From: an uncultured bacterium
GTDB taxonomy: Bacteria > Poribacteria > WGA-4E > GCA-2687025
Length of the DNA stretch: 64,000 nucleotides
Assembly (NCBI GenBank): GCA_964473525.1
Contig: CAYYPK010000031.1
Span: 7,820-71,819, forward strand
Direction of reading: 5' to 3'
Shown here: positions 11,442 to 61,477 of the stretch, one piece after another
Position numbering within the stretch: the stretch's first letter is position 1
Layout of the letters: every line of letters starts with the position of its first letter
Notes under the pieces: model-generated
What the model was told of the DNA's origin: nothing
The model's input: the letters and a program-made list of their open reading frames with translations, nothing else
Databases searched by the model: none
Made by a program: the position numbers and the translations under genes

Positions 11442-11587
11442 GGGACCTCCTGCGAGACGAATATGCTGCCTGGGAGCCAGAAAGGCGCAACTTAGTATGC
11501 TAGGCCTGTGTCCAGGCGTTGTCAAGGACTTTCGGTTGCGACACACGCACTCGGACGGGGCGGCATTCGCGCCGCCTACGGCGCGTC

Positions 11588-46469: not shown

Positions 46470-47174
46470 CTACGACGGCAACGACTTCTTCTGTGCGGCG
46501 GCCATGAGCTTGGCGACCTCGTCATTTACCTCGGCCGTCCCCGCATCGCCGTATTTGTCCTCGAGGGACTTCTGCGCCTCCGCGGCTGGATCGGTCGAGA
46601 GTTCCTCCCACGCCTCCGCTTCCGTCTCGAGCGTTTCGACCTCTCGCTCGAGGTTGTCCAACGCCGCGAGTGGGCTGTCCCCGGAGTCGAACGACGAGGA
46701 CGCCTTAGCGAGCTCCTGCCGGACCTTCGCGCCTTCCATGCGCGCGGACATACGAACCAGATTGCTTTCCGCCCCAGCAACCTTGGCCCGTGAGTTGTTC
46801 AGCTGGCCACGCAACTGCGCAATGAGCTGGCTCGTGTTCTCGATTTCGCTCTCGAGCGTCCCAAGGCGTTGCTCTGCCTCGGCGCGGTGTTCGAGCGCGG
46901 TGCGAACGTCGTCTTCGTTCCCGTCACCCGCCGCGCGCTCCGCGAACGTCTGGAACTTCTGCGCTTCCGCGAGCGTGTCGGCGCGCTCCCGCTCCATGCG
47001 CTTGTTGGACGCCACGAGCTTCGCGATCTTCTGCGTGAACTCCGCGATCTGCTTCTTGCTGTCCTCAATCGCGAACTTCCCGTCGCGGACGGGATCCCCA
47101 ATCGCCTTCGCGGCGTCCTCGTCCTTCGCGCGGAGCCAATTCCCGAGAGCCTTGAATACCTTTGCCATAGCCAT
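46470..47174 (-). CDS. PspA/IM30 family protein
   Basis: 234-aa coiled-coil protein with PspA/IM30-like heptad pattern (…KVFKALGNWLRAK…AIEDSKKQIAEFTQKIAKLVA…). Confidence 0.85.
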   Translation of the reverse strand: MAMAKVFKALGNWLRAKDEDAAKAIGDPVRDGKFAIEDSKKQIAEFTQKIAKLVASNKRMERERADTLAEAQKFQTFAERAAGDGNEDDVRTALEHRAEAEQRLGTLESEIENTSQLIAQLRGQLNNSRAKVAGAESNLVRMSARMEGAKVRQELAKASSSFDSGDSPLAALDNLEREVETLETEAEAWEELSTDPAAEAQKSLEDKYGDAGTAEVNDEVAKLMAAAQKKSLPS

Positions 47175-47216: not shown

Positions 47217-47669
47217 TTACCGAACGCCCTGACCGATGCCAATGCGCAGCACCTCGGCTCCTGCGACGAGCGCCGACCACAGACTATCAATGGATGTGGT
47301 CAGTTCCTCGTCGGAAAGGTCACCGATGGGCAGGCTGTCCGTCAGCACGATGGGCCAACTGTCGGGGTCGTCGAGGTCGGGGTTGTCAGAGGCGGTAATC
47401 GTCGCGAACGCATACGGCCGTATCTGAGTGTTGATATCGAGACATGCAACGCAGAACTCCATGACCATGTCGTCGTCGATGTCACCGAGCTTCGCCACCT
47501 GGCAGGTGACCACTAGTTCGCTGGTCGCGTCGTTGAGGGTGATGACCGCGACGAACGGGTTTTCTGACCCTCCCACGCCGATGGATACCGACCCGTTCTG
47601 CGCCTCGGGCTCGTAGCCGCTGGCCTCGAGCGCGTCAGCGACCTTCTCCAGGCTGTCGATCTTTGCCAT
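47217..47669 (-). CDS. YjfI/DUF2170-like protein, the usual partner of PspA-like YjfJ
   Basis: 150 aa from Met MAKIDSLEKVADALEASGYE…; the track ORF is over-extended at the 5' end. Adjacency to the PspA-like gene supports the call. Confidence 0.6.
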   Translation of the reverse strand: MAKIDSLEKVADALEASGYEPEAQNGSVSIGVGGSENPFVAVITLNDATSELVVTCQVAKLGDIDDDMVMEFCVACLDINTQIRPYAFATITASDNPDLDDPDSWPIVLTDSLPIGDLSDEELTTSIDSLWSALVAGAEVLRIGIGQGVR

Positions 47670-47951
47670 GTTTGCCTCGTTGAGTCGGGGAACGGTAAGG
47701 GGCGTCGTCGCGTGACTGCCCGCAATTCTACACCATCGCCCCCGCCACACGCACGCCACCCGATGTGATGGCGCCAGGCGTACCCCTGCTCCTCATGTTT
47801 GACACGACCCAGACCATGTGTTAGGTTCGGCTGCGGCTTCTGCCGCGCGGATGGGCGTCCCGTCACTTTGTGCGCGCTGACGGCGACGATGCCCAAGTTC
47901 GCCGACTGCCACATTGAGGTATCGCGCTGCGTAGGCTGAATAGAGAGCGAG

Positions 47952-50900
47952 ATGCGGAAGATAGACACTCCTCGGACCCGGCGATCCCTGTCCTTGCGCC
48001 GCGCGCCGATCGTGGCGTGGTGCGTCCTCCTGCTCGTAGCAACTCTCCATCACGCGCACGCGCAACGCCTGGACCTCACCCTGTCCGAAGACGCCGAAGC
48101 GATACGCCGCGCTGTCGGTATGGACAACATCAAGCGCGACATCGCCAGGCTCACTGCGCTCGAAAGCCGAGTAAGTGGCTTCCCGGGCGCCGATAGCGCG
48201 TCCAAGTACGTCTTTGATCGGTTCCAGGAGATCGGCCTCGACGACGTCGAGACGCGCACCTTCACCATGACCGTGCCGATGGAGCACGGGCTCGGGTCCA
48301 TGGTCGTCCGAGATGCGGACGGCGCCGAGATACGCCAGATCGACGTTCGGGCCGTGTGGCCCAATCTCGTACGCACCTCCTTCCTGCCGAACGGGCTGAA
48401 GCACACTGTCGAGAGTGGGCACACGCTCGAGTGGATAGGCGCCGCCTACCAGGTGGATCCAGCCGACATCGTAGCGGACATGCGCAACCAGGCTCTCCGT
48501 AACCAGCGCACCGACGGTCTGGACAACGACAACGACGGCCTGGTGGACGCCGCGGACCCCGACGGTGAAGTGACGCCCGTCGAAGGCACGTCCATCTTCG
48601 TTCCCACGGGCGGCCTGCAAGGTCGGCTCATCTACGGTAGCAGGTCCGCGCTACGCAACTACGACGGCAAGGAAGTTGGCGGGTTCTGGCACTCCGTGAG
48701 CCCAGACGACACGCTCGACGGCGTCGCTCGCAGATACCGTGTCACCCCCGGTAGCATCCTTGACGACGTCCTGAACCTGCACCTGAGCCGCAGCCAGGAC
48801 GGGATCGACAACGACGCCGACGGCGAGATCGACGAGGACGGCGAGATCGACCCGTTCGCGGTGATCGCCGCGTGGGCGTCCGACGGGGTCGACAACGACG
48901 GCGACGGGATGATCGACGAGGCCGCCGACAAGGACCTGGCGAAGACATCGGAGGCGTCCGTCTTCATCCCGCGCGGCTCGATCGTGCTGGCGGACTTCAA
49001 CTCCAGCACCAACTGGATCAACGCCGCGATGCTCGGCGCGCAGGCGGTCCTCTTCATTGAGCCAGAGGACACGATCCGTGGCGAGGCCGAGAACAAATAC
49101 CTTACCGTACCGGCGAACCTGCCCCGATTCTGGATCGGTAAGGCCGACGCCGACGAACTCCTGGAGATCCTGGGCGAGGATGGCGGGGCGTCCGTCTATC
49201 TGTCCGCCCAGCTCACCGCCGACGTGCGCTGGGAGCGGCGTCCGGCCCAGAACGTGCAGGGCATCCTGCCCGGCGCCGACCCGGTGCTTCGTGACGAGCT
49301 GATCGTCGTCCAGAGCTACTACGACTCCATGTCCGTTGTGCCGTCCCTGGCGCCTGGGGCGCAGACGACATCCGGCATCGCGTCGATGTTCGAGTTGGCG
49401 CGCCTCCTGAAGCAGCCGGAATTCCGGCCGGCGCGTTCGGTGCTGTTCCTGGCGACGGGAGGTCATTTCCAGGGCCTCAGCGGCATGCGCGCCTTCATGG
49501 AAGGCCTGAGCCAGGACAACGTTGAGACGATGCGCGAGATGCGCCGCGACCTCAACCAGGACGTCATTGAGTTCCAGGAACTCGGCCGCAAGATGGCCCT
49601 CTCGATCGACCGCGGCTACCTTGTCGAGTTTCCGCCCGCGTTCTTCCACCGTGTCGAGGACATCGCGACGGACCTCGATTCGGTCGTCAGCAGCCTGAAC
49701 GACCTCGCCGCCGCACAGCGACAGGTAGACCGGCTAGCTGAGGCGCAGCGCGCGGACAAGGAAGAGCAGCGCAAGCGTAAGACGGCGGACCTCTCGAAGA
49801 ACCGCGACGCACAGAACTTCACCGAGGAGGAACGCGCGCTCCTCAACGTTCACCTCGCTCGCGCCGAATTCCTTGGCCTGCAGACTGCCCAATTCCTCAA
49901 GGACGTAACACGGCGCATCGGGGACCTGAAGGTCATCGGCCTTCTCAAGTCGCGCGAGACCGAGCGGCAGATTCTGAACGACGTCGCGATCCCTATCGCC
50001 CAGTTGGACGTGTGGGCGATGGCTCAGGTCCGCGCCATCGCGGAAAGCGGCCAGGTTGGCGACGGCTATTCGCGGGACCGCGCCGATAGCTTGCTGCCGT
50101 ACGAGGACCGCGCGGCGCCTCCCGCGGCTGCTCTCAACACCATGCAGCCGGTGGTGATCCCCGGCTTCGGCGAACTCGATCCCAGGGACGCGTTCGATCA
50201 TCTGGCCAGCCCTGGCGTGCTGGACGAGTGGGAGATCGTGAAGGGCCGAGTCTCCACCCTCTACATTCCCGACAAGGTTCTCGGACGCCATCTGAACGCT
50301 GTTGAGCTAGGGCGCCTACGACGCGCCGCGAAGACGCTGAACGAACGGGCGTCCGGGTCGGACTACGCTAAGACGCGCAACGATCTCCTCGCGAAGGCTC
50401 TGGCGGCAGCGCAAGGGTACGCAGGGGCGGCGGGCGACATCGCGACGATCCAGGGGGCGCTGCAAGCGGGGTCGTTCCGCGCGATCCGCCCCGCCCTCGC
50501 GCGATACCTGACCGACGACGAGATGCGCGGGGCCGAGGCGAGCTTCGCCGAGCTCCAGGACGGCGCCGAATACGCTGCCGAGGAGTTAGCGCACTTCCTG
50601 AACATCGCGGAGCGGCGGCTCGAGCAGGAGGGGCCGCGACTCGAGAGCCTCCTCAGCGCGGCGCAGTCCGGCGCCCTCAACCGCGCCTTCCGCGCGGAGG
50701 AGCAGCTGGCGCTTGCCAATCATCTCACCCAGGCTGACCAGGATGGGCTAGCGGGCGCGCACGAGCAGCTCGTCGCGGAGTACGACCACGAGACGTATCT
50801 CGGCGTGGCGGAGGCCCGCGCGCGCAACGACGTGCTGGAACTCGCGCAGCTACAGCGTCTCGTCCCGACGATGGAGCGCGCCTTCACCGAGGGCGAAAAG

Positions 50901-53900
50901 CGACTCCTTCGCACGAACCTGATGACCATGCGGAACTCACGCGTCCGCAACGTCCACAAGCGCATTGAGCGCCTGTCCCGCATCGACCCGGTGGTGTATC
51001 AGGAGCGCGTCGCTGGCGTCATTCAGTCCATCCAGCTGCAGCAGGAACTCGGCCGCTACTACCAGTCCCTTGTCGTGTCGTTGGACCTCTCGACGCAGAG
51101 CGACGGCTTCGGCGTCTTCTACAAGGGCTCGTTCTACGACGACAACCGCGAATTCGAGCTACGTCGCGAATACGCGCCCATCGGCAACAAGCTGATGGAG
51201 TATGCGACGAACGCCAACCTGAAGCGCAACCTGGAAGCCCTACGTCGCTTCCCAGACGACCACGTCCGGCAGGCGATCTTGTCCAGCCAGTGGGGCGTCG
51301 CCGACCGCGTGAACACCGTCGAAGCGCTCGAAGGCAAGACGCTCGAGACGCTCGTCTTCGACTACTACGACACGCTCGTCACGCTGGGTGGCGTCAGCCG
51401 CCTCATGAAGCTGCAGTTCGAGGACATGCGGCAAAAGGGCGAGCCGTCCAAGACGATGCTCAAGGACATCGACTACATCCGCAAGGAGGTCAGTCGGTTC
51501 GTCCGCAACGACATTCGCGAGGCGCGTCGGCGCCGCAAGTCCACGAAGCGCCTGTTCGCGCGCGTCGAGAAGATGCTCGCGCTCAAGAGCCGACCCATCG
51601 AAGGGCTGTCGGACGACGAGATCAACGACCTGCGCAGCCTCATGGCGATGGCGGGCATCGAGTCCGAGACGAACTTCGTCAACGCCATCAGCGCCAGCGG
51701 CGGTAAGACCTGGCAGACGTATATCCCAGGCAAGATGGCGTTCGACAGCGAGGTCGCCACGCTCTCCGGCAAGACGGGCATGACCTTCGCGACCATCGAC
51801 GACGGACGGGTGTACACGGACACGCCACTCGACACCTACGACCGGCTGAACTTCGACAACCTGGAAGCGCAGGTTCAGACGCTGGCGTCTGTTCTGGTGC
51901 AGATGCTCCGCGACCCGAAGATGCCGACATCCGCGCGGGTCGGGAACTTCTATACGGCGCTGTCCGGCCGCGTTGTCGAATACGACGCCCGCGAGAGCGC
52001 CGTCCCGCAGACTCCGGTGCAGAACGCCATCGTCGCCGTGCGACGCAAGACGAAGACCATGATGGGCGTGCGCGGGGATCTGTACGTGCTCGGCGACCAG
52101 AAGGGCCGATACACGCTGGCTGGCCTGGCGATGGAAGGCCGCGCGACGACGCGTCCGAAGGGCACGCAGGAGGTAGAGGCGTTCGTCCTCGACCCAGACT
52201 CGGGCGACATCGTCTATGCCCCCGACCTCGGCGAGTTCGGCGCGAAGTTCTATCCGAACCTCGTTCCCATGAACCGCCGCCGCGTCGGGGCCAACATCGT
52301 CGCGTTTCCGTGCGTCAGCACGACGATTTACGACCTCGTCGACCAACGGTACATGCGTACGCTCACGTCCTTACAGGTGTACGATTCCACCCGCGACGCG
52401 CCGCCGCAGCGGTACGGCATCTCGCGCCCGTGGATACAGCCGCTGGTGTCCGCCGCGGAGCCCATCGCGCTCGTCTATTCCGAGCCGGACTCCCGCATCA
52501 AAATCAGCATGGCGTCAGGCCTGTTGGGCAAGCTCCTGCTGCTCATCAAGGCCACCGGCACGAACGTCGACAACCCCACGCTCTACACGGGTGAAGGGTT
52601 CGTCGTCCGCGAGAACGGGTCGATCCGCGTGACGCCGTACGTGGTCGTGAAGGACATGTGGAATCTCGATGAGGCGCGCATCGGCCTCTACACGCGCTAC
52701 GGCATCAGCAACAAGCGTCTGGAGGAGTTGCACGGCGAAGCGCAACGGCTGCTAGAGAAGGCTGAGCGTGACTTGGCCGCGAACGAATATACCGCGGCCC
52801 TGAAGAAAGCGCGCGCCGCTTGGGGCAACGAGTCCATCGCCTACCCTGACGTCAAGGCGACCGGCAACGATGTCGTCCGGGGCGTCATGTTCTACCTGTT
52901 CCTGCTGCTCCCGTTTGCGATGTTCGGCGAGCGCCTTCTGTTCGCGGCGACGAACATCAACAAGCGCATCGGTTACACGTTCGGCATCTTCCTGCTCGTG
53001 TTCTTCTTCCTCAGCCAGGTGCATCCGGCCTTCGAGATTGCCGAGACGCCGTTCATCATCCTTATCGCGTTCATCGTGCTTGCGCTGACGGTGGTCGTCA
53101 TCACCATCATCATCCGCAAGTTCAACGAGCAGCTCGAGAAGATGCGGCGTGAGAAGTCGAAGATCTACAAAGCGGACGTCGGGCGGCTGTCGGCCAGCGC
53201 CGCCGCGTTCTCGCTGGGCATCTCCAACATGCGGAAGCGCAAGGGCCGCACGCTGCTGACCTGCGCGACGTTGGTGGTGCTGACGTTCACGGTGATTTCA
53301 TTCACGTCCGTGCGCACGGAGATTCGCGCGCATTCGACGCGCATCCCAGGGGTCACGCCGAACTATCAGGGCGTGCTGATTCGCGACCAATACTGGCGGC
53401 CGCTCGAAGAGCCGGTCGTCGACGGCTCGCGCACGAACTTCCTCAGCGCGACCATCGCGGCGCGTATCGAGGGCGCGATGCAGAACATCGACGTGACCAG
53501 CTACGTCGCCCCGCGCGCTTGGTACGAAGCGGCGAGCGTCGGCAACCAGTCGGCGGTTGTCATCGATAGCCTCGTCGAGGATGACACGAGCTACACCGTG
53601 AACATGCTCGTGGGCATGTCGCCCGACGAGAAGCACGTCACGCGCATCCACTCGAAGCTCGCCTACGGTCGGTGGTTCGAGGACGACGAGCTAGACGCCT
53701 ATGTGTGCGTGCTGCCCAAGGGCGTGTCGGATTCCCTCGGCGTCACTGAGGAGCAGGTCGTCAACGGCGACGCCAAGGTGCGCATCTTGGGCGCCGAGTT
53801 CCTGGTCGTGGGCGTTCTCGGGATCGACTTCAAGGAGCTGACGGACCTCGACGGCGAGGAACTGACCCCCGTTGACTACACGCTCTTGCAGCAGCAGCAG

Positions 53901-55070
53901 CAGCGCGGTTCGCAGGACTCGACCCTCGAGGGTGAGCTGCAGAAGTACCAGCATCTGCCGCCCGACGCCATCGCGGTCCTCCCGTACCAGATCGTCGTGG
54001 ACTCCGGCGGCAACGTGAAGTCCGTCGCCGTGAACATGGAGGATGTGCAGGGCGAGCTGCCAGCGGGCGTGACCGTCGGCGACAAGATCGACGCCATCAT
54101 GTCGCCAGTGATGAAGCGCTCCGGCTTGGACTACTTCGTCGGGAAGGGGCGCAACGTCTTCCTATACAGCTCCATCGGCGGCACGTCCACGGAGCAGATG
54201 AGCAACCTCGCGGTGCCGATCATCATCGCCGCGCTGATCGTCCTCAACACGATGCTCGGCGCGGTCTACGAGCGTGTGCGCGAAATCGGAATCTACAGCG
54301 CCGTCGGCTTGGCGCCGGTGCACATCGCCTTCCTCTTCATGGCTGAGGCGTGTGTGTATGCCGTCCTCGGCGCTGTATTGGGTTACCTGCTGGGTCAGAT
54401 GACCGCCTGGACGCTCGTGCAGACAGGCTGGCTGGCGGGACTCACTCTGAACTACTCCGCGCGATCCACGGTCTACGCGACGATGATCGTCATGTTCGTG
54501 GTGTTGGCGTCGACTATGTATCCGGCGATCAAGGCCGGGCGCATGGCCGTGCCGGACATTGAGCGCAAGTGGCGCCTCCCCGAGCCGGACGGAGACGAAT
54601 GGCATTTCGACCTGCCGTTCACGGTTCTCGGTGAGGAGGCCCTTGGTCTCAACATCTTCATGCGGGACTACTTCGAGGCTCACGCGGACGAGTCGGCGAG
54701 TGACTTCTACGCGGACGATGTCAGCTTCCGACGGGAGACGCCGGAGGGCGCGGAGGACGAGGAGTACGCCTGCGAGATGATGGTGTGGTTGGCGCCGTAT
54801 GACTTAGGCGTAAGCCAGCGCGTCAGCCTCCAGACAACGGCCGTCGGCGGCGAGGAAGAGGAGCTCTTCCGCATCCACTTGGTCGTCTACCGCGAGAGCG
54901 GCGAGATCGCTTCGTGGAAGCGCGTCAACCGACGCTACCTGAACCTGATTCGCAAGCAGTTGCTTATCTGGCGCACGTTCAACGTCGAGTTGCGTGGCGA
55001 ATTCCACGCGCGTGGACGCGACGAGACCGAACGCATGGCGGGTGCCACCCCGGAATTCGCGTCCGACTGA
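47952..55070 (+). CDS. giant fusion protein: signal peptide + degenerate M28-peptidase-like (transferrin-receptor-like) ectodomain + Asp-rich Ca-binding-type repeats + long coiled-coil region + 3 TM + FtsX/MacB-type ABC permease
   Basis: M28-like block …LIVVQSYYDSMSVVPSLAPGAQTTSGIASMFELARLL…RSVLFLATGGHFQGLSGMRAF, with the canonical HxDS / GAxDDxSG / EE zinc-ligand positions substituted. DxDxDG-like repeats (DGLDNDNDGLVDAAD, DGIDNDADGEIDEDGEID, DGVDNDGDGMIDEAAD). FtsX-like first TM …ISNMRKRKGRTLLTCATLVVLTFTVISF…, large periplasmic domain, and C-terminal 3-TM FtsX core …IYSAVGLAPVHIAFLFMAEACVYAVLGAVLGYLLG…. Confidence 0.7.
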   Translation: MRKIDTPRTRRSLSLRRAPIVAWCVLLLVATLHHAHAQRLDLTLSEDAEAIRRAVGMDNIKRDIARLTALESRVSGFPGADSASKYVFDRFQEIGLDDVETRTFTMTVPMEHGLGSMVVRDADGAEIRQIDVRAVWPNLVRTSFLPNGLKHTVESGHTLEWIGAAYQVDPADIVADMRNQALRNQRTDGLDNDNDGLVDAADPDGEVTPVEGTSIFVPTGGLQGRLIYGSRSALRNYDGKEVGGFWHSVSPDDTLDGVARRYRVTPGSILDDVLNLHLSRSQDGIDNDADGEIDEDGEIDPFAVIAAWASDGVDNDGDGMIDEAADKDLAKTSEASVFIPRGSIVLADFNSSTNWINAAMLGAQAVLFIEPEDTIRGEAENKYLTVPANLPRFWIGKADADELLEILGEDGGASVYLSAQLTADVRWERRPAQNVQGILPGADPVLRDELIVVQSYYDSMSVVPSLAPGAQTTSGIASMFELARLLKQPEFRPARSVLFLATGGHFQGLSGMRAFMEGLSQDNVETMREMRRDLNQDVIEFQELGRKMALSIDRGYLVEFPPAFFHRVEDIATDLDSVVSSLNDLAAAQRQVDRLAEAQRADKEEQRKRKTADLSKNRDAQNFTEEERALLNVHLARAEFLGLQTAQFLKDVTRRIGDLKVIGLLKSRETERQILNDVAIPIAQLDVWAMAQVRAIAESGQVGDGYSRDRADSLLPYEDRAAPPAAALNTMQPVVIPGFGELDPRDAFDHLASPGVLDEWEIVKGRVSTLYIPDKVLGRHLNAVELGRLRRAAKTLNERASGSDYAKTRNDLLAKALAAAQGYAGAAGDIATIQGALQAGSFRAIRPALARYLTDDEMRGAEASFAELQDGAEYAAEELAHFLNIAERRLEQEGPRLESLLSAAQSGALNRAFRAEEQLALANHLTQADQDGLAGAHEQLVAEYDHETYLGVAEARARNDVLELAQLQRLVPTMERAFTEGEKRLLRTNLMTMRNSRVRNVHKRIERLSRIDPVVYQERVAGVIQSIQLQQELGRYYQSLVVSLDLSTQSDGFGVFYKGSFYDDNREFELRREYAPIGNKLMEYATNANLKRNLEALRRFPDDHVRQAILSSQWGVADRVNTVEALEGKTLETLVFDYYDTLVTLGGVSRLMKLQFEDMRQKGEPSKTMLKDIDYIRKEVSRFVRNDIREARRRRKSTKRLFARVEKMLALKSRPIEGLSDDEINDLRSLMAMAGIESETNFVNAISASGGKTWQTYIPGKMAFDSEVATLSGKTGMTFATIDDGRVYTDTPLDTYDRLNFDNLEAQVQTLASVLVQMLRDPKMPTSARVGNFYTALSGRVVEYDARESAVPQTPVQNAIVAVRRKTKTMMGVRGDLYVLGDQKGRYTLAGLAMEGRATTRPKGTQEVEAFVLDPDSGDIVYAPDLGEFGAKFYPNLVPMNRRRVGANIVAFPCVSTTIYDLVDQRYMRTLTSLQVYDSTRDAPPQRYGISRPWIQPLVSAAEPIALVYSEPDSRIKISMASGLLGKLLLLIKATGTNVDNPTLYTGEGFVVRENGSIRVTPYVVVKDMWNLDEARIGLYTRYGISNKRLEELHGEAQRLLEKAERDLAANEYTAALKKARAAWGNESIAYPDVKATGNDVVRGVMFYLFLLLPFAMFGERLLFAATNINKRIGYTFGIFLLVFFFLSQVHPAFEIAETPFIILIAFIVLALTVVVITIIIRKFNEQLEKMRREKSKIYKADVGRLSASAAAFSLGISNMRKRKGRTLLTCATLVVLTFTVISFTSVRTEIRAHSTRIPGVTPNYQGVLIRDQYWRPLEEPVVDGSRTNFLSATIAARIEGAMQNIDVTSYVAPRAWYEAASVGNQSAVVIDSLVEDDTSYTVNMLVGMSPDEKHVTRIHSKLAYGRWFEDDELDAYVCVLPKGVSDSLGVTEEQVVNGDAKVRILGAEFLVVGVLGIDFKELTDLDGEELTPVDYTLLQQQQQRGSQDSTLEGELQKYQHLPPDAIAVLPYQIVVDSGGNVKSVAVNMEDVQGELPAGVTVGDKIDAIMSPVMKRSGLDYFVGKGRNVFLYSSIGGTSTEQMSNLAVPIIIAALIVLNTMLGAVYERVREIGIYSAVGLAPVHIAFLFMAEACVYAVLGAVLGYLLGQMTAWTLVQTGWLAGLTLNYSARSTVYATMIVMFVVLASTMYPAIKAGRMAVPDIERKWRLPEPDGDEWHFDLPFTVLGEEALGLNIFMRDYFEAHADESASDFYADDVSFRRETPEGAEDEEYACEMMVWLAPYDLGVSQRVSLQTTAVGGEEEELFRIHLVVYRESGEIASWKRVNRRYLNLIRKQLLIWRTFNVELRGEFHARGRDETERMAGATPEFASD

Positions 55071-55119
55071 GGCGGCGCACACGACAGGCGCATGAACGAC
55101 CGCGCCCAAGGGAGCGAGA

Positions 55120-57162
55120 GTGGCTCGATCAAGACGTAAAGGGGAATCGCTAGCCGAGGAGATGCAATCCTGGGCAAAGCGATACGACACGGACGAAGGT
55201 ATCCGCACCTTCGAGTCCGGGCTAAGCGTCAAAGTCCTCCTGGGCGCGGCTTTCGTCGGCTTCCTGATGATGCCCGGCGCCATCTACCTGACCCTACAGA
55301 CCGGTGGCGCGGCGGGCGGGGCCGCTGCCCCGTGGGTAGCCGTCATTCTCTTCACGGAGATTGCGCGACGCTCCTTCCAGACCGCCAAGCGGCAGGAACT
55401 CTACATCCTGCTGGCCCTCACGGGGGCTGCGGTGAACGCTGGCGGGCAGTATTACGGCTACATCATGGACTCGTACTTTATCAACTCGCAGCAAGCCGAG
55501 TCGTACGAGATCGCCGACAAGATACCTGACTGGGCCATCGCGCCCAAGGACTCCAGGGCGCACGCAGACCGATCTCTATTCCACAAAGACTGGTGGCGCG
55601 GCGCTAGGAGCGAGGCGCGCGTGTTCGGGTTCCCCATCGGCCCCATCACCCTGATGCTCCTGTTGCAGGTGTTGGGACGGCTCCGGCACATATCAGGCAG
55701 TTACTTCCTGTTCAGGGTGTGCGCGGACTTCGAGAAGTTACCGTACCCAATGGCGCCCGTGAGCGCCCAGGGGGCCACTGCGCTCGCGGAGAGCACCCAC
55801 AAGACGGAGACCTGGAGGTGGAGGGTCTTCAGTATTGGCTCCATTATCGGGATGGGTTGGGGAGCCATCTATGTCGGGGTGCCCCAAATCAGCGGCGCCC
55901 TAGGCATGTCGGAGCCGTTGCGCATCATCCCCATTCCGTTCATCGACTTCACGCAGAGCATTGAGGCGTTCGCGCCGACCGGGACGTTCGCTATCACGAC
56001 GGACGCCAGCGCGATACTCACTGGCTTCGTGATGCCCATTCCCGTCGTGGTCGCCCAATTCGTGTCCGCTTCGTTTACGCAGTTCCTCCTCAACCCGTTC
56101 CTGTACCGGCAGGACATCCTGCACACGTGGGAACCGGGGATGGACGTGCGCATCACAGGCCTGCGCAACAGCCTCGACTTCTGGATGAGCTTCGGCTACG
56201 GGAAGACCTTCTCGTTCGCCGTCCTCGGGCTCGGCACCGTCATCATCATGTTCGCCAAGAGAGGCAACAAGAAGGAGGTCGGCGCGGGGAGTTGGGCGGC
56301 GCCTCCTGGACGCGGCGATTTCCCCATCTGGCTGGCCCTCATCATGTGGGGTCTTGGGATGGGCGGCTATGTCTACGTCGTGCACAAGCTGATCCCAGGC
56401 TTCCCGCTCGCGTTCCTGATGGGCTTCGCGTTCCTCTACACCCCGCTGAACTCCTACATCAGCGCCCGAACCTTCGGCATCATGAGCCGCGACCTGTTCG
56501 ACATCCCGTACATCAAGGAAGCCACGTTCATCCTGAGTCGATACGATGAGATCGACATATGGTTCGCGCCGTTCCCAAGCGAGGACTACGGCACGGAGAC
56601 ACAGGGGTGGCGCATCCTCGAGCTGACCGGCACGACCTTCACAAGTAAGATCGCGGCTGACCTGCTTGCCTGGCCGGTACTGCTGATCGCCGGTATCGTG
56701 GCGTGGCATTTCATCTGGAAGCTGGCGCCGATTCCGTCTGCGCAGTACCAGTTCGCGCAGATGATGTGGCCTCTGTTCGCAACGAACCGAGCGTTGTGGA
56801 TCACGGCTCTGCGGGATGGTCACTCCGAGCAGTTACAGGCCATCCGACCGACGTACATTCTCGCGGGCTTCGTCATATCGTTGGGCATCTACGGACTAAC
56901 CGTCGTGTCCCGCATTCCATACCGTCACATTGCAGGTTACGGGGTCATCGGGGGCCTCGGCGCCGACCCGGGTATGTTCTTCCTCCAGTTCATTGGCGCG
57001 ATCGTTGGCCGCTACGTGATGATCAAGCGCTTCGGGCGTAACCGATGGGCGCGGTACAACCCGGTGCTGCTAGCTGGGTTCTTCTGCGGCATGGCGCTGG
57101 TGGGTATGGCGGGCGTCGCGATCGACCTGATACAGAAGTCGGTCATCGTGAAGCCGTTCTGA
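55120..57162 (+). CDS. polytopic membrane protein, divergent paralog P3 of the P1/P2 family
   Basis: 680 aa with a GTG start and a GGGAGCGAG Shine-Dalgarno. It shares …FEKLPYPMAP… and the overall hydrophobic pattern with P1/P2, and lies 49 bp downstream of the giant ORF. Confidence 0.55.
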   Translation: MARSRRKGESLAEEMQSWAKRYDTDEGIRTFESGLSVKVLLGAAFVGFLMMPGAIYLTLQTGGAAGGAAAPWVAVILFTEIARRSFQTAKRQELYILLALTGAAVNAGGQYYGYIMDSYFINSQQAESYEIADKIPDWAIAPKDSRAHADRSLFHKDWWRGARSEARVFGFPIGPITLMLLLQVLGRLRHISGSYFLFRVCADFEKLPYPMAPVSAQGATALAESTHKTETWRWRVFSIGSIIGMGWGAIYVGVPQISGALGMSEPLRIIPIPFIDFTQSIEAFAPTGTFAITTDASAILTGFVMPIPVVVAQFVSASFTQFLLNPFLYRQDILHTWEPGMDVRITGLRNSLDFWMSFGYGKTFSFAVLGLGTVIIMFAKRGNKKEVGAGSWAAPPGRGDFPIWLALIMWGLGMGGYVYVVHKLIPGFPLAFLMGFAFLYTPLNSYISARTFGIMSRDLFDIPYIKEATFILSRYDEIDIWFAPFPSEDYGTETQGWRILELTGTTFTSKIAADLLAWPVLLIAGIVAWHFIWKLAPIPSAQYQFAQMMWPLFATNRALWITALRDGHSEQLQAIRPTYILAGFVISLGIYGLTVVSRIPYRHIAGYGVIGGLGADPGMFFLQFIGAIVGRYVMIKRFGRNRWARYNPVLLAGFFCGMALVGMAGVAIDLIQKSVIVKPF

Positions 57163-57214
57163 CGCGGCGTCGTCGACGCGATCGCACGGTATTCCACGCC
57201 ACGGACATGGAACC

Positions 57215-58156
57215 ATGGCCGACTCATGGGCGCGGTTTGGGTGGCAGGGCCTCTCCGCTGAGGCGCCCGTCGACTGGGAACTCGTGGGCATCCCCAAAAC
57301 CCACGACGCCGCGGAAGGCTATCTGCGCCTCGATGACGCCACGCAGCCGCGCTTCGAGCTGAAGTGGAACTCCAACGCGCAGCGCAAGTTCGACATCGAG
57401 AAGACGCTGGACGACTACCTGTCCGGCATTCGGAAGACCTACGAGAAGCAGATCGGCCCCATTGAGGTGCGCAAGGACCAAGTGCTCATCCCGGACGCTG
57501 GCGCGGATGCCGCGTTCCACGAGCATCGTGAGGTGCGCTTCTTCTCGTGGCGTGGCGAGTTGCGCGCGTACGGCGCCATATGGCGTTGCGCCGAGTGCAA
57601 GCGCGTGGTCATGGCGCAGGTCATCGGCCCTTCGGGCGGGCAAGGGACGAAGACGCAAGCAGTGCGCATCCTACGTTCTATCCAGGACCACCCGTCCGGT
57701 CCTACGAACTTGTGGACCGCCTACGGCCTGGAAATGGACGTGCCGCGGCGCTTCCGCTTGGACAAGCTACAGCTCCTGAACGGCTACATCCTCTTCTCCT
57801 TCACCGACGGTTCGTCTCGCGTGGCGGTCGAGCGCTACGGGCTCGCCGACCAGCACATGAAGGATGGCGACATCGACGCGTGGTTCCGACGGACGTATGC
57901 TAAGCAGATGCGCGGGACGACGCTGGCCTTGGACGACGACGACCTGCACGACCATTCGCTGCGTATCTGGGACGCGTCGCTCCCCAAGGCCTGGGAGTCG
58001 TACGCGCGCCCCGTGCGCACTGCGGGACATGTGTGGCAGGACGCCACGGCGAACCGGCTCTATGTCGTGCGGGCCACCGGCAAGCGTGATCTGCGAGCCG
58101 CGATGCGGCGTATCGCGGCGAGCATCCCGATGCGGCCGGTCGAGGTCATGGAATGA
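57215..58156 (+). CDS. hypothetical protein (313 aa), no family recognised
   Basis: ORF with coding-like composition. Its stop overlaps the start of the next gene in an ATGA. Confidence 0.4.
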   Translation: MADSWARFGWQGLSAEAPVDWELVGIPKTHDAAEGYLRLDDATQPRFELKWNSNAQRKFDIEKTLDDYLSGIRKTYEKQIGPIEVRKDQVLIPDAGADAAFHEHREVRFFSWRGELRAYGAIWRCAECKRVVMAQVIGPSGGQGTKTQAVRILRSIQDHPSGPTNLWTAYGLEMDVPRRFRLDKLQLLNGYILFSFTDGSSRVAVERYGLADQHMKDGDIDAWFRRTYAKQMRGTTLALDDDDLHDHSLRIWDASLPKAWESYARPVRTAGHVWQDATANRLYVVRATGKRDLRAAMRRIAASIPMRPVEVME

Positions 58157-58647
58157 TGGCGGCGGCGCTTAACAACGTGCTGCACACTTTGCGCCTGCGG
58201 CGCAGGCCGCCGCAATCGCAGCGGTCGCGCGCCGACGTCATGGCGTCCGTGCCGGTGCGGAATTCTTTGGTTGAGTGGCGCAAGGAGGAGACCGGCGACG
58301 TCTCGCTCGTAATCCCGGCGGACCACAAGCGTACGTTGCGCATCCTGGTCCGTGTGATGAACCTGCCCGCCAAGCGGGTCGTGGCGTTGGACGCGGTGGG
58401 CTCCTTCGTCTGGGAGCAGTGCGACGGTGAGAAGACGTTCGGCGAGGTGTCGGAGGCGCTGGCGAAGCAGTTCGGCATGACGCGCCGCGAGTCCGAAGCG
58501 TCCCTGGCGGAGTTCTTCCGCGTGCTGGGTAAGCGTGGGATGCTGGGCTTCGTCGTGGCTGACGGGGTGAAAGAGCAAATAGAGGCGGCGAAAAACAGCG
58601 GCCGAGGGCGCGGCAAGCGGCAACACGGGAAGAAGGGGCGTCAATGA
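58153..58647 (+). CDS. PqqD-family protein (RiPP recognition element-like)
   Basis: …ALDAVGSFVWEQCDGEKTFGEVSEALAKQFGMTRRESEASLAEFFRVLGKRGML matches the PqqD consensus (…LNetaaxiWellDGkrtveeixeelaeeydvdpeeaexDvlefleeLxexgLl). It is ATGA-coupled to both neighbouring genes. Confidence 0.7.
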   Translation: MMAAALNNVLHTLRLRRRPPQSQRSRADVMASVPVRNSLVEWRKEETGDVSLVIPADHKRTLRILVRVMNLPAKRVVALDAVGSFVWEQCDGEKTFGEVSEALAKQFGMTRRESEASLAEFFRVLGKRGMLGFVVADGVKEQIEAAKNSGRGRGKRQHGKKGRQ

Positions 58648-59444
58648 CCGAAGGAACCATGGGAGTCCAGGCCACGGACGCCGGGGCGATTGCCGCGACG
58701 TTGGCCCCCGTCGAGAACGCTGTTCGTGTGCGCAATGTCGTCAAGCGCTACGAGATGGGCGACACGGTCGTCGATGCGCTCAGGGGCGTCAACCTCGAAA
58801 TCCGGCGTGGTGAATACATCTCCATCGTCGGGCCGTCGGGCTCCGGCAAGTCCACGCTGTTCAACATGGTCGGCGGACTCGACAAGCCGACAGAGGGGCG
58901 CGTCTACATCGACGAGGTGGACATCGCCCAGTTGGACGCGCGCGAGTTGGCGTGGCTCCGATGCCGCAAGATCGGCTACATCTTCCAGAGCTTCAACCTC
59001 ATTCCCGTGATGACGGCTCTCGAGAACATCACGCTGCCCATGATCTTCGCAGGCGACACGGCGGACGACGCCATTGAGAAAGGCGTCGGGCTCCTAACGA
59101 GGGTGGGTCTGGGCGATCGCGTGCAGCACAAGCCGGTCGAGCTCTCCGGCGGGCAGCAACAGCGCGTTGCGATCGCGCGCGCCTTCGCAAACGATCCGTC
59201 CATCATCCTCGCGGATGAGCCGACAGGGAACCTGGACACGCAGACAGGACTCGATGTTATCGACCTGTTGCGTGAGCTGAACCGGGAAGGCAACGTCACG
59301 ATCATCACGGCGACGCACGATCTTAAGATGCTGGATGTATCCGACCGCATCGTGCACATCGAAGACGGCCGAGTGGCGAAAATCGAGCTCCGCGAGGACG
59401 CCGACCTGGATGTCGGCACGCTCGACGGACAGGAAGTAGGATAA
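58644..59444 (+). CDS. ABC transporter ATP-binding protein (MacB/LolD-type)
   Basis: Walker A GPSGSGKST, the Q-loop, signature LSGGQQQRVAIARA, Walker B IILADEPTGNLD and an H-loop. Typical partner of FtsX-type permeases. Confidence 0.92.
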   Translation: MTEGTMGVQATDAGAIAATLAPVENAVRVRNVVKRYEMGDTVVDALRGVNLEIRRGEYISIVGPSGSGKSTLFNMVGGLDKPTEGRVYIDEVDIAQLDARELAWLRCRKIGYIFQSFNLIPVMTALENITLPMIFAGDTADDAIEKGVGLLTRVGLGDRVQHKPVELSGGQQQRVAIARAFANDPSIILADEPTGNLDTQTGLDVIDLLRELNREGNVTIITATHDLKMLDVSDRIVHIEDGRVAKIELREDADLDVGTLDGQEVG

Positions 59445-61452: not shown

Positions 61453-61477
61453 CAACGAAGCCCGGAGCCCATCCGAC

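What the first reader, a model, noticed from the sequence alone, without database searches (positions are those of the whole stretch)
47952..55070. 2372-aa single ORF fusing a catalytically degenerate M28-like ectodomain, Ca-binding-type Asp repeats and ~900 aa of coiled coil to a complete FtsX/MacB-type ABC permease
FtsX/MacB permeases are normally ~400-800 aa. Here ~1650 residues precede the first FtsX helix. The M28-like block retains the fold signature (…YYDS…GAQTTSG…ATGGHFQGLSG…), but the canonical zinc ligands (HxD, DD, EE) appear substituted. This suggests a pseudo-peptidase or transferrin-receptor-like binding domain. Three DxDxDG-type repeats (DGLDNDNDGLVDAAD and others) and a long Glu/Arg/Ala-rich helical stretch follow, then three extra TM helices and the FtsX module, whose long periplasmic domain is typical of mechanotransmission type VII ABC systems. 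This looks like an extracytoplasmic binding or processing machine driven by the cytoplasmic ATPase encoded 3.5 kb downstream.
Basis: partly seen in the sequence, partly recalled or inferred. Interest (0 to 1): 0.75.

Follow-up and report, generated by a model that had tools for sequence, protein, structure and literature searches.

The report
Giant pseudo-peptidase fused to ABC permease
This is a real 2372-residue gene of a Poribacteria-like bacterium: an inactivated-looking aminopeptidase fold sits on the outside of the cell membrane, fused to the membrane part of an ATP-driven "mechanical" ABC machine. It is the enlarged version of an uncharacterised five-gene system found in over 500 bacterial species.

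Summary
The ORF 47952..55070 (+) is real. More than 119 full-length homologues (50-95% identity, 2326-2731 aa) come from independent Poribacteria assemblies, so a frameshift fusion is excluded.

**Anatomy of the protein**
- Signal peptide.
- A PA-domain M28 aminopeptidase fold without the canonical di-zinc site (H97→Y, D117→Q, E151→H, E152→F, H256→D).
- A β-rich domain, then a three-helix bundle.
- Three extra TM helices, then an FtsX/MacB permease with its periplasmic domain.
- A conserved cytoplasmic tail.

The "coiled coil" is not a linker. It is two helical insertions (about 660 aa) nested inside the M28 fold. Two LysM-like modules carrying the DxDxDG loops are also insertions. All four are Poribacteria-specific.

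**Wider family.** The roughly 1500-aa core occurs in at least 547 species genomes across many phyla. It lies in a conserved operon with a polytopic membrane protein annotated as a peptide transporter, a tandem PsbP/Mog1-fold protein, a PqqD-like protein and a LolD-type ATPase.

**Reading.** The best interpretation is a new type VII ABC mechanotransmission system with a built-in pseudo-peptidase receptor. The substrate is unknown, and no literature on the system was found.

The parts
47952..55070 (+). Giant ORF (2372 aa plus stop): pseudo-M28 ectodomain fused to an FtsX/MacB permease
   Evidence: for the ORF; at least 119 full-length homologues of 2326-2731 aa; homologues in complete Poribacteria chromosomes.
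47952..48062 (+). Signal peptide (aa 1-37; hydrophobic core aa 13-31, AHA-Q site)
   Evidence: Hydropathy. The cleavage motif was read directly from the sequence.
48084..48386 (+). N-terminal segment of the M28 fold (aa 45-145)
   Evidence: Aligns to the start of the PA-M28 aminopeptidases 2ek8 and YwaD. Conserved in the short-form family.
48387..48602 (+). Insertion A (aa 146-217): LysM-like half-module 1 plus DxDxDG loop 1 (aa 191)
   Evidence: Absent from the cross-phylum core. DxDxDG motif. Pfam LysM matches 2 stretches.
48603..49250 (+). PA (protease-associated) domain, aa 218-433, interrupted by insertion B
   Evidence: The profile alignment to 2ek8 covers its PA domain. Pfam PA is weak, E 0.013, at aa 341-403.
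48678..48971 (+). Insertion B (aa 243-340): LysM-like half-module 2 plus DxDxDG loops 2 and 3 (aa 286, 314)
   Evidence: LysM at aa 247-271, 21.7 bits against a cut-off of 20.9, profile positions 1-25 of 43..
49251..49586 (+). M28 core, first half (aa 434-545), with Y456, D458, Q471, H505 and F506 at the canonical ligand and base positions
   Evidence: Pfam. Direct alignment to 1amp/2anp. Position table.
49587..51059 (+). Helical insertion C (aa 546-1036), including the long hairpin aa 562-611 and 625-699
   Evidence: AF2 model with pLDDT 85.1. 74% helix. Absent from the short-form family.
51060..51149 (+). M28 central strand segment (aa 1037-1066; LVVSLDLS with the invariant D1045 at canonical D179)
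   Evidence: Strand in the AF2 model. Invariant D. Contiguous with the first half in short forms.
51150..51650 (+). Helical insertion D (aa 1067-1233)
   Evidence: AF2 model, 85% helix. Mostly absent from short forms.
51651..51941 (+). M28 C-terminal part (aa 1234-1330; YTDTPLDT with D1290 at canonical H256)
51942..52625 (+). β-rich domain (aa 1331-1558), family signature, no confident structural relative
   Evidence: AF2 model. Foldseek gives only weak pilin CnaB/Ig-like matches, E at least 7.8e-3. Highly conserved.
52626..52871 (+). Three-helix bundle leading into the membrane (aa 1559-1640)
   Evidence: AF2 helices at model residues 1126-1199.
52872..53111 (+). Three extra TM helices (aa 1641-1720) with invariant E1660, R1661 and the H1691-P-A-F motif
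   Evidence: Hydropathy. Invariant columns. Matched by PADLOC PDLC01991 profile positions 78 onward.
53256..54545 (+). FtsX/MacB module: TM1 (aa 1769-1787), periplasmic core domain (aa 1788-2086), TM2-4 (aa 2087-2198)
   Evidence: Pfam MacB_PCD and FtsX. PDB profile hits to MacB 5lil (3.5e-15), YtrF, LolF and LolC.
54546..55067 (+). Conserved cytoplasmic C-terminal domain (aa 2199-2372), no Pfam family
   Evidence: Conservation. No Pfam hit. Matches PADLOC PDLC01991 positions 527-685 of 810, E 1.1e-6.
55120..57162 (+). Partner 1: 680-aa polytopic membrane protein (at least 12 hydrophobic segments), annotated 'peptide transporter' in relatives, weak OPT-like similarity
   Evidence: Immediately downstream of the giant gene in most of the 81 loci whose sequence extends beyond it..
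57215..58156 (+). Partner 2: 313-aa cytoplasmic protein with a tandem PsbP/Mog1p-like fold
58153..58647 (+). Partner 3: PqqD-like (peptide-chaperone/RRE-type) protein. Its annotated start codon overlaps the stop of the 313-aa gene, and its stop overlaps the ATPase start.
   Evidence: Pfam PqqD E 2.8e-11. NCBIfam. Synteny. Coordinates.
58644..59444 (+). Partner 4: LolD/MacB/FtsE-type ABC ATPase with intact Walker A (GPSGSGKST), signature (LSGGQQQR), Walker B (ILADEPT) and H-loop
   Evidence: Pfam ABC_tran 5.4e-34. NCBIfam LolD 1.7e-70. 67-73% identical in the other phyla. Motifs read.

Best explanation
**What it is.** The ORF is one genuine gene. It encodes the permease and working subunit of a conserved five-gene type VII (MacB/FtsX/LolC-class) ABC system spanning 47952..59444.

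**Topology, from outside to inside.**
- After a signal peptide, about 1600 residues lie outside the cytoplasmic membrane.
- They form a PA-domain M28 aminopeptidase fold, a β-rich domain and a three-helix bundle.
- The chain then crosses the membrane seven times: three family-specific helices, followed by the four-helix FtsX module with its periplasmic core domain.
- It ends in a conserved cytoplasmic domain.

**State of the M28 pocket.** The pocket has lost the canonical di-zinc site and the general-base glutamate. It keeps a different invariant polar set: D458, H505, D1045 and D1290.

**Proposed mechanism (inferred).**
- The LolD-type ATPase dimer (58644..59444) binds the cytoplasmic face of the FtsX module.
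- ATP binding and hydrolysis move the TM helices and the periplasmic domain, as in MacB, LolCDE, FtsEX and YbbAP.
- That motion passes through the three extra helices and the helical bundle to the pseudo-peptidase/PA head.
- The head acts as a non-catalytic clamp or receptor, or at most a non-canonical catalyst, for a peptide or a protein N-terminus.
- The substrate is handled jointly with the adjacent polytopic membrane protein and with two cytoplasmic binding-fold proteins (PqqD-like and tandem PsbP/Mog1-like).

**Poribacteria-specific additions.** Four insertions of about 790 aa in total add two LysM-like modules with DxDxDG loops and two helical arrays. These plausibly tether the head to peptidoglycan or extend its reach.

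**Shown versus inferred.** Shown: gene integrity, domain anatomy, loss of the canonical catalytic residues, family breadth and operon conservation. Inferred: mechanotransmission, the receptor role and the peptide nature of the substrate.
For: **Gene integrity**
- for the ORF.
- At least 119 full-length homologues, including complete chromosomes.

**Type VII permease**
- Pfam FtsX and MacB_PCD.
- Profile hits to the solved structures of MacB, YtrF, LolF and LolC.
- LolD/MacB/FtsE-type ATPase.

**M28 fold and site**
- M28/PA fold: profile hits to 2ek8 (4.9e-24) and YwaD (7.3e-22).
- Remodelled site.
- Insertions nested in the fold.

**Family and operon**
- 702 cluster representatives and at least 547 species genomes in Poribacteria, Armatimonadota, Latescibacterota, Desantisbacteria, Zixibacteria, Omnitrophota, Nitrospirota and others.
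- Operon conserved across phyla, with the ATPase 67-73% identical and the membrane partner 38-45% identical.
- Tight or overlapping gene junctions, and no more terminator-like sites than expected by chance.

**Partner folds and precedents**
- PqqD; PsbP/Mog1 fold.
- Relatives of the membrane partner are named 'peptide transporter', and one matches OPT at 4.8e-5.
- A type VII ABC transporter paired with a periplasmic hydrolase: YbbAP-TesA (PMC12646458).
Against: - No substrate, ligand or phenotype is known, and the mechanistic steps are analogies.
- The pocket keeps invariant D458, H505, D1045 and D1290, so residual or novel catalysis or metal binding cannot be excluded.
- The OPT link of the membrane partner is weak. 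It matched 1 of 19 members, and two relatives with precomputed OPT hits gave nothing at E<0.01 on rescanning.
- No RiPP precursor or modifying enzyme accompanies the PqqD-like gene.
- In other phyla a small FtsX-only permease is part of the operon, but it is missing here. The oligomeric state in Poribacteria is therefore uncertain.
- The LysM matches cover only the first half of the Pfam profile.
Confidence: 0.55

Rival explanations
1. A peptidoglycan-remodelling regulator of the FtsEX-EnvC/PcsB type. The ABC engine would move a coiled-coil arm and a degenerate hydrolase-like domain that binds the cell wall through LysM and switches a separate wall hydrolase on or off.
For: - LysM-like modules (PF01476 is precomputed in most Poribacteria homologues).
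- A long two-helix hairpin of 50 and 75 residues.
- A degenerate hydrolase fold on a type VII ABC permease, formally like EnvC's dead LytM domain (PMC7668044, listed).
- A penicillin-binding protein gene lies upstream in one relative (L001).
Against: - The LysM modules and helical arrays are Poribacteria-specific insertions. The roughly 1500-aa core family lacks them, so they cannot define the core function.
- The degenerate domain is an aminopeptidase fold, not LytM, CHAP or NlpC.
- No ftsE or division genes are linked.
- The conserved partners (polytopic membrane protein, PqqD-like, PsbP-fold) have no counterpart in FtsEX systems.
Confidence: 0.15
2. An active but non-canonical exopeptidase or peptide-processing enzyme. 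The remodelled pocket (D458, D/E471, H505, D1045, D1290) would bind one metal or use His505 as the base. It would trim a peptide that is then moved by the adjacent transporter-like protein.
For: - The replacement residues are invariant or nearly so across phyla, which argues for a functional pocket rather than decay.
- The best single-sequence PDB hit is the Aeromonas aminopeptidase carrying His at position 151 (2anp). From memory, that E151H mutant retains low activity.
Against: - H97→Y/F and E152→F/variable remove one ligand from each canonical metal site.
- In the window protein the bridging D117 position is Gln.
- No experimental data exist.
Confidence: 0.15
3. A defence-associated membrane effector of the 'CARF_m8-LolE_TM' kind, switched by a cytoplasmic nucleotide signal sensed by the C-terminal domain.
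For: - PADLOC model PDLC01991 matches at E 3.8e-51. The match covers the extra TM helices, the FtsX module and most of the cytoplasmic tail.
Against: - No cas gene was seen among the annotated or scanned neighbours of the window operon and of L001, and no other shared ORF cluster emerged from the 31 non-Poribacteria loci.
- The other four operon proteins match no system-specific PADLOC model; only the ATPase gives generic P-loop hits.
- The last 110-125 positions of the profile are unmatched.
- The operon looks like a stable housekeeping unit in over 500 species.
- The source paper for the model name could not be read.
Confidence: 0.05
4. An assembly or frameshift artefact that fuses a secreted protein to an ordinary FtsX permease.
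For: Only the unusual length.
Against: - Full-length homologues occur in at least 119 clusters and in many independent assemblies, including closed chromosomes.
- The fusion is also present in the roughly 1500-aa form in other phyla.
Confidence: 0.01

Closest known systems
Type VII ABC transporters (MacB, LolCDE, FtsEX, YbbAP-TesA)
   Same: - Four-helix FtsX module with a periplasmic core domain between TM1 and TM2.
- A separate LolD/FtsE-type ATPase in the same operon.
- A periplasmic working partner. YbbAP pairs with the hydrolase TesA, and FtsEX with EnvC, which carries a dead LytM domain.
   Different: - The periplasmic partner is fused in cis to the N-terminus and is an M28/PA aminopeptidase fold.
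- Three extra, highly conserved TM helices precede the FtsX module.
- There is a 170-aa cytoplasmic tail.
- The operon adds a polytopic membrane protein, a PqqD-like protein and a PsbP/Mog1-fold protein.
Bacterial PA-domain M28 aminopeptidases (Aneurinibacillus AM-1 aminopeptidase 2ek8, Bacillus YwaD 6hc6, Aeromonas AAP 1amp)
- Same PA insertion.
- Recognisable motifs around every active-site position.
   Different: - The canonical ligands and base are replaced (H97→Y, D117→Q/E/D, E151→H, E152→F, H256→D).
- The fold is interrupted by four insertions in Poribacteria.
- It is tethered to a membrane machine.
M28-fold pseudo-enzymes in membrane complexes (nicastrin, nicalin, GPAA1, transferrin receptor)
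   Same: - An M28 fold without the standard zinc site, sitting as an extracytoplasmic head on a membrane complex.
   Different: - These are eukaryotic and are more distant than the bacterial enzymes.
- None is coupled to an ABC engine.
- The resemblance is most likely convergent use of the same fold.
PADLOC models PDLC01991/PDLC01990 ('CARF_m8--CARF_LolE_TM', 'CARF_Beta-galactosidase_LolE_TM')
   Same: - Shares the membrane chassis (extra TM helices, FtsX module) and most of the post-TM4 cytoplasmic domain, at 172 bits.
- PDLC01990 shows that another large hydrolase-like domain can occupy the ectodomain position.
   Different: - PDLC01991 has no M28 ectodomain.
- Its last 110-125 positions are not matched here.
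- No CRISPR linkage is seen for the present operon.

Membership tests
Type VII ABC permease (FtsX/MacB/LolC class) | Four TM helices in the order TM1, large periplasmic domain, TM2-4, matching Pfam FtsX | tested here: met
   Pfam FtsX E 1.3e-12 at aa 2090-2198. Hydropathy. PDB profile hits to MacB (3.5e-15), YtrF, LolF and LolC.
Type VII ABC permease (FtsX/MacB/LolC class) | MacB-type periplasmic core domain between TM1 and TM2 | tested here: met
   Pfam MacB_PCD at aa 1771-1983, 32.9 bits against a cut-off of 27.
Type VII ABC permease (FtsX/MacB/LolC class) | Cognate LolD/MacB/FtsE-type nucleotide-binding subunit | tested here: met
   58644..59444 matches LolD at 1.7e-70, MacB NBD at 6.1e-66 and FtsE at 2.9e-62. 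It is syntenic with the permease across phyla.
Type VII ABC permease (FtsX/MacB/LolC class) | ATP-driven mechanotransmission to the periplasmic side | not testable with these tools
   Needs structures in different nucleotide states, or biochemistry.
Peptidase family M28 (active di-zinc aminopeptidase) | M28 α/β fold | tested here: met
Peptidase family M28 (active di-zinc aminopeptidase) | Five co-catalytic zinc ligands (His97, Asp117, Glu152, Asp179, His256 in Aeromonas numbering) | tested here: not met
   Y456, Q471, F506, D1045 and D1290 occupy these positions, so only Asp179 is kept. The mapping of the last two positions rests on weak alignment plus motif reading.
Peptidase family M28 (active di-zinc aminopeptidase) | General-base glutamate (Glu151) | tested here: not met
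   His505 is invariant in all 120 Poribacteria sequences and all 21 cross-phylum sequences.
M28-fold pseudo-enzyme receptors (TfR, nicastrin, nicalin, GPAA1) | Closer kinship to these than to bacterial M28 enzymes | tested here: not met
FtsEX-EnvC/PcsB wall-hydrolase regulators | Peptidoglycan-hydrolase-type domain (LytM, CHAP, NlpC) and linkage to ftsE and division genes | tested here: not met
   The Pfam and NCBIfam scans of the ORF found no such domain. The neighbours are not division genes.
LysM domain | Full βααβ LysM module above the Pfam threshold | tested here: inconclusive
   21.7 bits against a cut-off of 20.9, and only when the N-terminal 433 aa are scanned alone. The match covers profile positions 1-25 of 43. 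PF01476 is precomputed in most homologues. No structure was modelled for this region.
DxDxDG calcium-binding loops | DxDxDG motif that binds calcium | tested here: inconclusive
   Three exact motifs. Weak matches to acid_disulf_rpt and MopE models lie below their cut-offs. Calcium binding is not testable here.
CARF_m8-LolE_TM (PADLOC PDLC01991) | Whole-model match including the C-terminal end, and linkage to type III CRISPR | tested here: inconclusive
   Profile positions 78-361, 429-550 and 527-685 of 810 are matched. The end of the profile is unmatched. No cas genes appear among the neighbours.
OPT oligopeptide transporters (for the partner at 55120..57162) | Match to Pfam PF03169 above threshold | tested here: inconclusive
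   1 of 19 members matched at 4.8e-5. 11 of 120 relatives have a precomputed hit, and NCBI names relatives 'peptide transporter'. Two of those relatives gave nothing at E<0.01 on rescanning. There is no PDB relative.
PqqD / RiPP recognition element (for 58153..58647) | PqqD domain | tested here: met
   Pfam PqqD E 2.8e-11, 44 bits against a cut-off of 23.4.
PqqD / RiPP recognition element (for 58153..58647) | Neighbouring precursor peptide and modifying enzyme (radical SAM, cyclase and the like) | tested here: not met
   None was found in the window operon or in the related loci.

The most novel reading that the evidence does not exclude
The five genes may build a previously unrecognised, phylum-spanning envelope machine. 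A type VII ABC engine would carry a nicastrin-like pseudo-peptidase receptor in cis. It would work with a transporter-like membrane partner and two cytoplasmic peptide- or protein-binding adaptors (PqqD-like and tandem PsbP/DUF1795-like). Together they would move, extract or anchor a specific peptide or protein across or at the inner membrane. That would amount to a new bacterial peptide/protein export or surface-attachment pathway in Poribacteria, Armatimonadota and allied phyla.
Probability: 0.25. Interest if true: 0.85.

Novelty: new variant of a known kind. Interest (0 to 1): 0.62.

Why it matters
**For the ABC field.** Type VII ABC systems do mechanical work in the cell envelope, and only a handful have known jobs: MacAB, LolCDE, FtsEX, YbbAP and Bce-type systems. 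This family adds an architecture in which the periplasmic "tool" is fused to the engine and is an M28 fold with a remodelled but conserved pocket. It also has a fixed set of partners not seen in any characterised system.

**Breadth.** It is present in at least 547 species genomes, mostly from poorly studied phyla. The ATPase is about 70% identical across phyla, which suggests an important envelope function.

**Parallel with eukaryotes.** Eukaryotes use dead M28 folds (nicastrin, nicalin, GPAA1) as substrate-receiving heads on membrane machines. This family is a bacterial counterpart.

**Testability.** Its relatives include Armatimonadota, a phylum with cultured members. Whether any cultured strain carries the operon was not checked.

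Tried and rejected
- **Frameshift or fusion artefact.** Rejected by full-length homologues.
- **Linear coiled-coil stalk.** Rejected. The helices are insertions inside the M28 fold.
- **Transferrin-receptor kinship.** It is weaker than kinship to the bacterial PA-M28 enzymes.
- **First genome scan.** A scan with an alignment of the β-domain region failed for lack of a conserved stretch. It was repeated with the full-length alignment.
- **Sequence searches of PDB.**
  - The membrane partner and the 313-aa protein gave nothing.
  - A single-sequence search with the second M28 half also gave nothing.
- **Pfam and NCBIfam.** No hits for the 680-aa protein, the 313-aa protein or the C-terminal domain.
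- **Small FtsX-only permease.** A search of the window found none.
- **Small 2-TM ORF.** A search of the window found none.
- **The two other ~1500-aa ORFs in the window (2810..7300 and 7374..12074, minus strand).** They are not paralogues; 2810..7300 reads rpoC-like, and its neighbour is inferred to be rpoB from position only.
- **Literature searches** for M28 with FtsX and PqqD, Poribacteria with FtsX, and the annotation phrases found nothing relevant.
- **Makarova 2020 CARF census** could not be retrieved.
- **Defence-system reading.** Considered and judged unlikely.
Full report
**1. The observation.**
- The window is about 65% G+C.
- An uninterrupted ORF of 2372 codons runs from ATG 47952 to the stop at 55070 on the + strand.
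- Pfam places Peptidase_M28 at aa 434-541 (E 3.7e-11, only positions 1-97 of the 193-position profile), MacB_PCD at aa 1771-1983 (32.9 bits, cut-off 27) and FtsX at aa 2090-2198 (E 1.3e-12). A weak LysM match lies at aa 247-271.
- A hydropathy scan gives an N-terminal signal-like segment (aa 13-31), three extra TM helices (aa 1641-1720), FtsX TM1 (aa 1769-1787) and TM2-4 (aa 2087-2196).
- This topology puts aa 38-1640 and the aa 1788-2086 domain outside, and aa 1721-1768 and aa 2199-2372 inside. That agrees with the N-in/C-in topology of MacB-type permeases.
- Three exact DxDxDG motifs start at aa 191, 286 and 314.

**2. The gene is not an artefact.**
- A search of 5.8 billion proteins returned 642 relatives. 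The best 120 clusters are 50-95% identical, and at least 119 of them are full length (2326-2731 aa). Where they are named, they come from Candidatus Poribacteria.
- A scan of one genome per species found the same gene in many independent assemblies, including closed Poribacteria chromosomes.
- A frameshift fusion is therefore excluded.

**3. It is the enlarged form of a much wider family.**
- An exhaustive HMMER search with aa 545-1640 found 702 cluster representatives (E ≤ 1e-3). Most are 1450-1700 aa long.
- Mapping them onto the query shows that the shared core is aa 45-148, aa 341-520, aa 1040-1090 and aa 1235-2357.
- The query-specific stretches are aa 146-217, aa 243-340, about aa 525-1032 and aa 1105-1240, roughly 790 aa in total.
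- Short forms carry the same Pfam set, M28 plus MacB_PCD plus FtsX. One is annotated from Zixibacteria.
- The genome scan confirmed at least 547 species genomes. Besides Poribacteria, these include Armatimonadota, Fervidibacter, Desantisbacteria, WS1, Latescibacterota, Zipacnadia, Omnitrophota, Gemmatimonas and Nitrospirota.

**4. The ectodomain.**
- *Fold.* A profile of the family matches the PA-domain M28 aminopeptidases 2ek8 (4.9e-24) and YwaD (7.3e-22). It matches nicalin, transferrin receptor and nicastrin more weakly.
- *Model.* An AlphaFold2 model of aa 436-1635, built on 42 sequences, is confident (mean pLDDT 85.1, pTM 0.68). It contains:
  - M28 strands and helices at aa 437-556;
  - a helical array at aa 546-1036, including 50- and 75-residue helices that form a hairpin;
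  - the strand LVVSLDLS at aa 1037-1045;
  - a second helical array at aa 1067-1233;
  - the last M28 elements at aa 1234-1330;
  - a β-rich domain at aa 1331-1558;
  - a three-helix bundle at aa 1561-1634.
- *Other structural matches.* Foldseek found nothing significant for the discontinuous fold. It gave only weak pilin-like matches for the β-domain.
- *Catalytic positions.*

| Aeromonas residue | Window protein | Conservation in the family |
|---|---|---|
| His97 | Tyr456 | Tyr/Phe in almost all members |
| Asp99 | Asp458 | Invariant |
| Asp117 | Gln471 | Asp in most Poribacteria, Glu in most other phyla |
| Glu151 | His505 | Invariant |
| Glu152 | Phe506 | Variable across phyla |
| Asp179 | Asp1045 | Invariant |
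| His256 | Asp1290 | Nearly invariant |

  The first five rows come from direct alignment and the family table. The last two also rest on weak alignment and motif reading.
- *Reading of the site.* The canonical di-zinc site and general base are gone, but a different polar set is strictly conserved. I read this as a ligand-binding pocket that is probably non-catalytic. Non-canonical catalysis is not excluded.
- *N-terminal insertions.* Each consists of a LysM-like β-α-α segment followed by an acidic DxDxDG loop. Pfam LysM just passes threshold when the N-terminal part is scanned alone. Calcium and peptidoglycan binding are inferences.

**5. The membrane and cytoplasmic parts.**
- The FtsX module matches the solved structures of MacB, YtrF, LolF and LolC.
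- The three preceding TM helices are among the most conserved parts of the family, with invariant E1660, R1661 and H1691-P-A-F.
- The cytoplasmic tail (aa 2199-2372) is highly conserved and has no Pfam family.
- A PADLOC model named CARF_m8--CARF_LolE_TM matches the extra helices, the FtsX module and most of the tail (E 3.8e-51 overall; the tail with TM4 alone gives 1.1e-6). The last 110-125 positions of the model are unmatched.
- A sister model with a β-galactosidase label also matches the FtsX module. This suggests a common chassis that carries different ectodomains.
- I could not read the paper behind these model names. I saw no CRISPR linkage.

**6. The operon.** Downstream on the same strand, with 50- and 52-nt gaps followed by two 4-nt overlaps as the ORFs are listed, lie four genes:

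| Coordinates | Product | Evidence |
|---|---|---|
| 55120..57162 | 680-aa polytopic membrane protein | At least 12 hydrophobic segments. Relatives are named 'peptide transporter', 11 of 120 have a precomputed OPT hit, and one member matches OPT at 4.8e-5. Two relatives did not reproduce the OPT hit. |
| 58153..58647 | PqqD-like protein | Pfam E 2.8e-11. |
| 58644..59444 | LolD/MacB/FtsE-type ATPase | Intact motifs. |

- tblastn of these proteins against 81 related loci shows the same set next to the permease gene in most Poribacteria loci, and all four partners in eight loci from other phyla (chiefly Armatimonadota, plus a Desantisbacteria MAG). The ATPase is 67-73% identical and the membrane protein 38-45% identical across phyla.
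- Terminator-like sites inside the operon do not exceed chance.
- Other phyla add a small FtsX-only permease of about 200-255 aa next to the ATPase. It is missing from the window and from the Poribacteria loci.
- Most Poribacteria add a 55-63-aa two-TM ORF after the giant gene. It is missing from the window.

**7. How it most likely works.**
- *Shown:* a type VII ABC permease with its cognate ATPase; an in-cis M28/PA head without the canonical catalytic set; a fixed partner set.
- *Inferred, by analogy with MacB, LolCDE, FtsEX-EnvC and YbbAP-TesA (PMC12646458, PMC7668044):*
  - ATP binding and hydrolysis in the cytoplasm move the TM helices and the periplasmic core domain.
  - This motion passes through the three extra helices and the helical bundle to the head.
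  - The head grips or releases a peptide or a protein N-terminus.
- The adjacent polytopic protein and the two cytoplasmic binding-fold proteins suggest that the ligand, or a related molecule, is also handled in the membrane and the cytoplasm.
- In Poribacteria the LysM-like and acidic modules and the helical arrays probably tether or extend the head in the periplasm.
- I put about 0.9 on the architecture and family statements and about 0.45 on the mechanistic reading, which gives an overall 0.55.

**8. Rivals.**
- *FtsEX-EnvC-like wall-hydrolase regulator.* It fits the LysM modules and the hairpin. Those are lineage-specific, however, and the partners do not fit.
- *Non-canonical active peptidase.* The invariant replacement residues keep this open. 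The window protein has lost one more acidic position.
- *Defence effector.* It rests only on a model name.
- *Artefact.* Refuted.

**9. Novelty.**
- Databases annotate members as "M28 family peptidase", "FtsX-like permease family protein" or "LysM peptidoglycan-binding domain-containing protein".
- A related membrane chassis is catalogued in PADLOC.
- Four full-text searches found no study of this fusion or operon.
- I rate it a new variant of a known kind (type VII ABC systems). The Poribacteria protein is a strongly expanded member.

Noticed in passing
L001:17448-17639 and 39 other Poribacteria loci (for example L009, L012, L014): A conserved 55-63-aa ORF with two predicted TM helices (motif GRWQWQ...AH.WEE) lies between the giant gene and the 680-aa membrane protein gene. 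It is absent from the window, where the gap 55071..55119 is only 49 nt, and it gave no tblastn hit in the window's close relatives (L002, L003, L044).
   Followed up: partly
L062:17897-18505, L058:18178-18783, L051:2832-3500 and 12 other non-Poribacteria loci: A small FtsX-only permease of about 200-255 aa (Pfam FtsX 3.2e-16) sits between the PqqD-like gene and the ATPase. It suggests a heterodimeric permease in those phyla. tblastn finds none in the window or in the Poribacteria loci.
   Followed up: yes
L041 versus L039 (same contig CBDCTK010000002.1); also L027, L029, L030, L032: Some Poribacteria genomes carry a second, longer paralogue of the giant gene (proteins of about 2550 aa appear among the homologues, though they were not matched to these loci). 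It has none of the four partner genes within 10 kb.
   Followed up: no
L051:4571-6589: In a Desantisbacteria locus, a 673-aa membrane protein matching DUF6785 (3.1e-152) plus DUF6784 lies between the ATPase and the giant gene.
   Followed up: no
window 54165..55067 (aa 2072-2372): PADLOC model PDLC01990 ('CARF_Beta-galactosidase_LolE_TM', 1791 positions) also matches the FtsX module. This hints that other large hydrolase-like ectodomains are mounted on the same membrane chassis.
   Followed up: partly
window 46470..47174 (-) and 47217..47759 (-): A PspA/IM30 gene (Pfam 1.5e-20) and a 180-aa ORF without a family diverge from the giant gene. This neighbourhood is kept only in the closest relative (L003).
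   Followed up: partly
window 2810..7300 (-) and 7374..12074 (-): Two ORFs of about 1500 aa are unrelated to the finding. The N-terminus of 2810..7300 reads like RNA polymerase β'. The adjacent ORF was assumed to be rpoB from its position only.
   Followed up: partly
window 58153..58647 and 58644..59444: Homologues of the PqqD-like protein and the ATPase align only from about residue 27-29 and residue 22-24 respectively. The true starts may therefore be downstream of the annotated first ATG, for example Met30 of the PqqD-like ORF.
   Followed up: no
window 60508..61452 and 61301..63073 (+): Two same-strand ORFs overlap by about 150 nt. The second (590 aa) has an aldo/keto reductase match only from residue 111, which suggests a mis-called start.
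   Followed up: no
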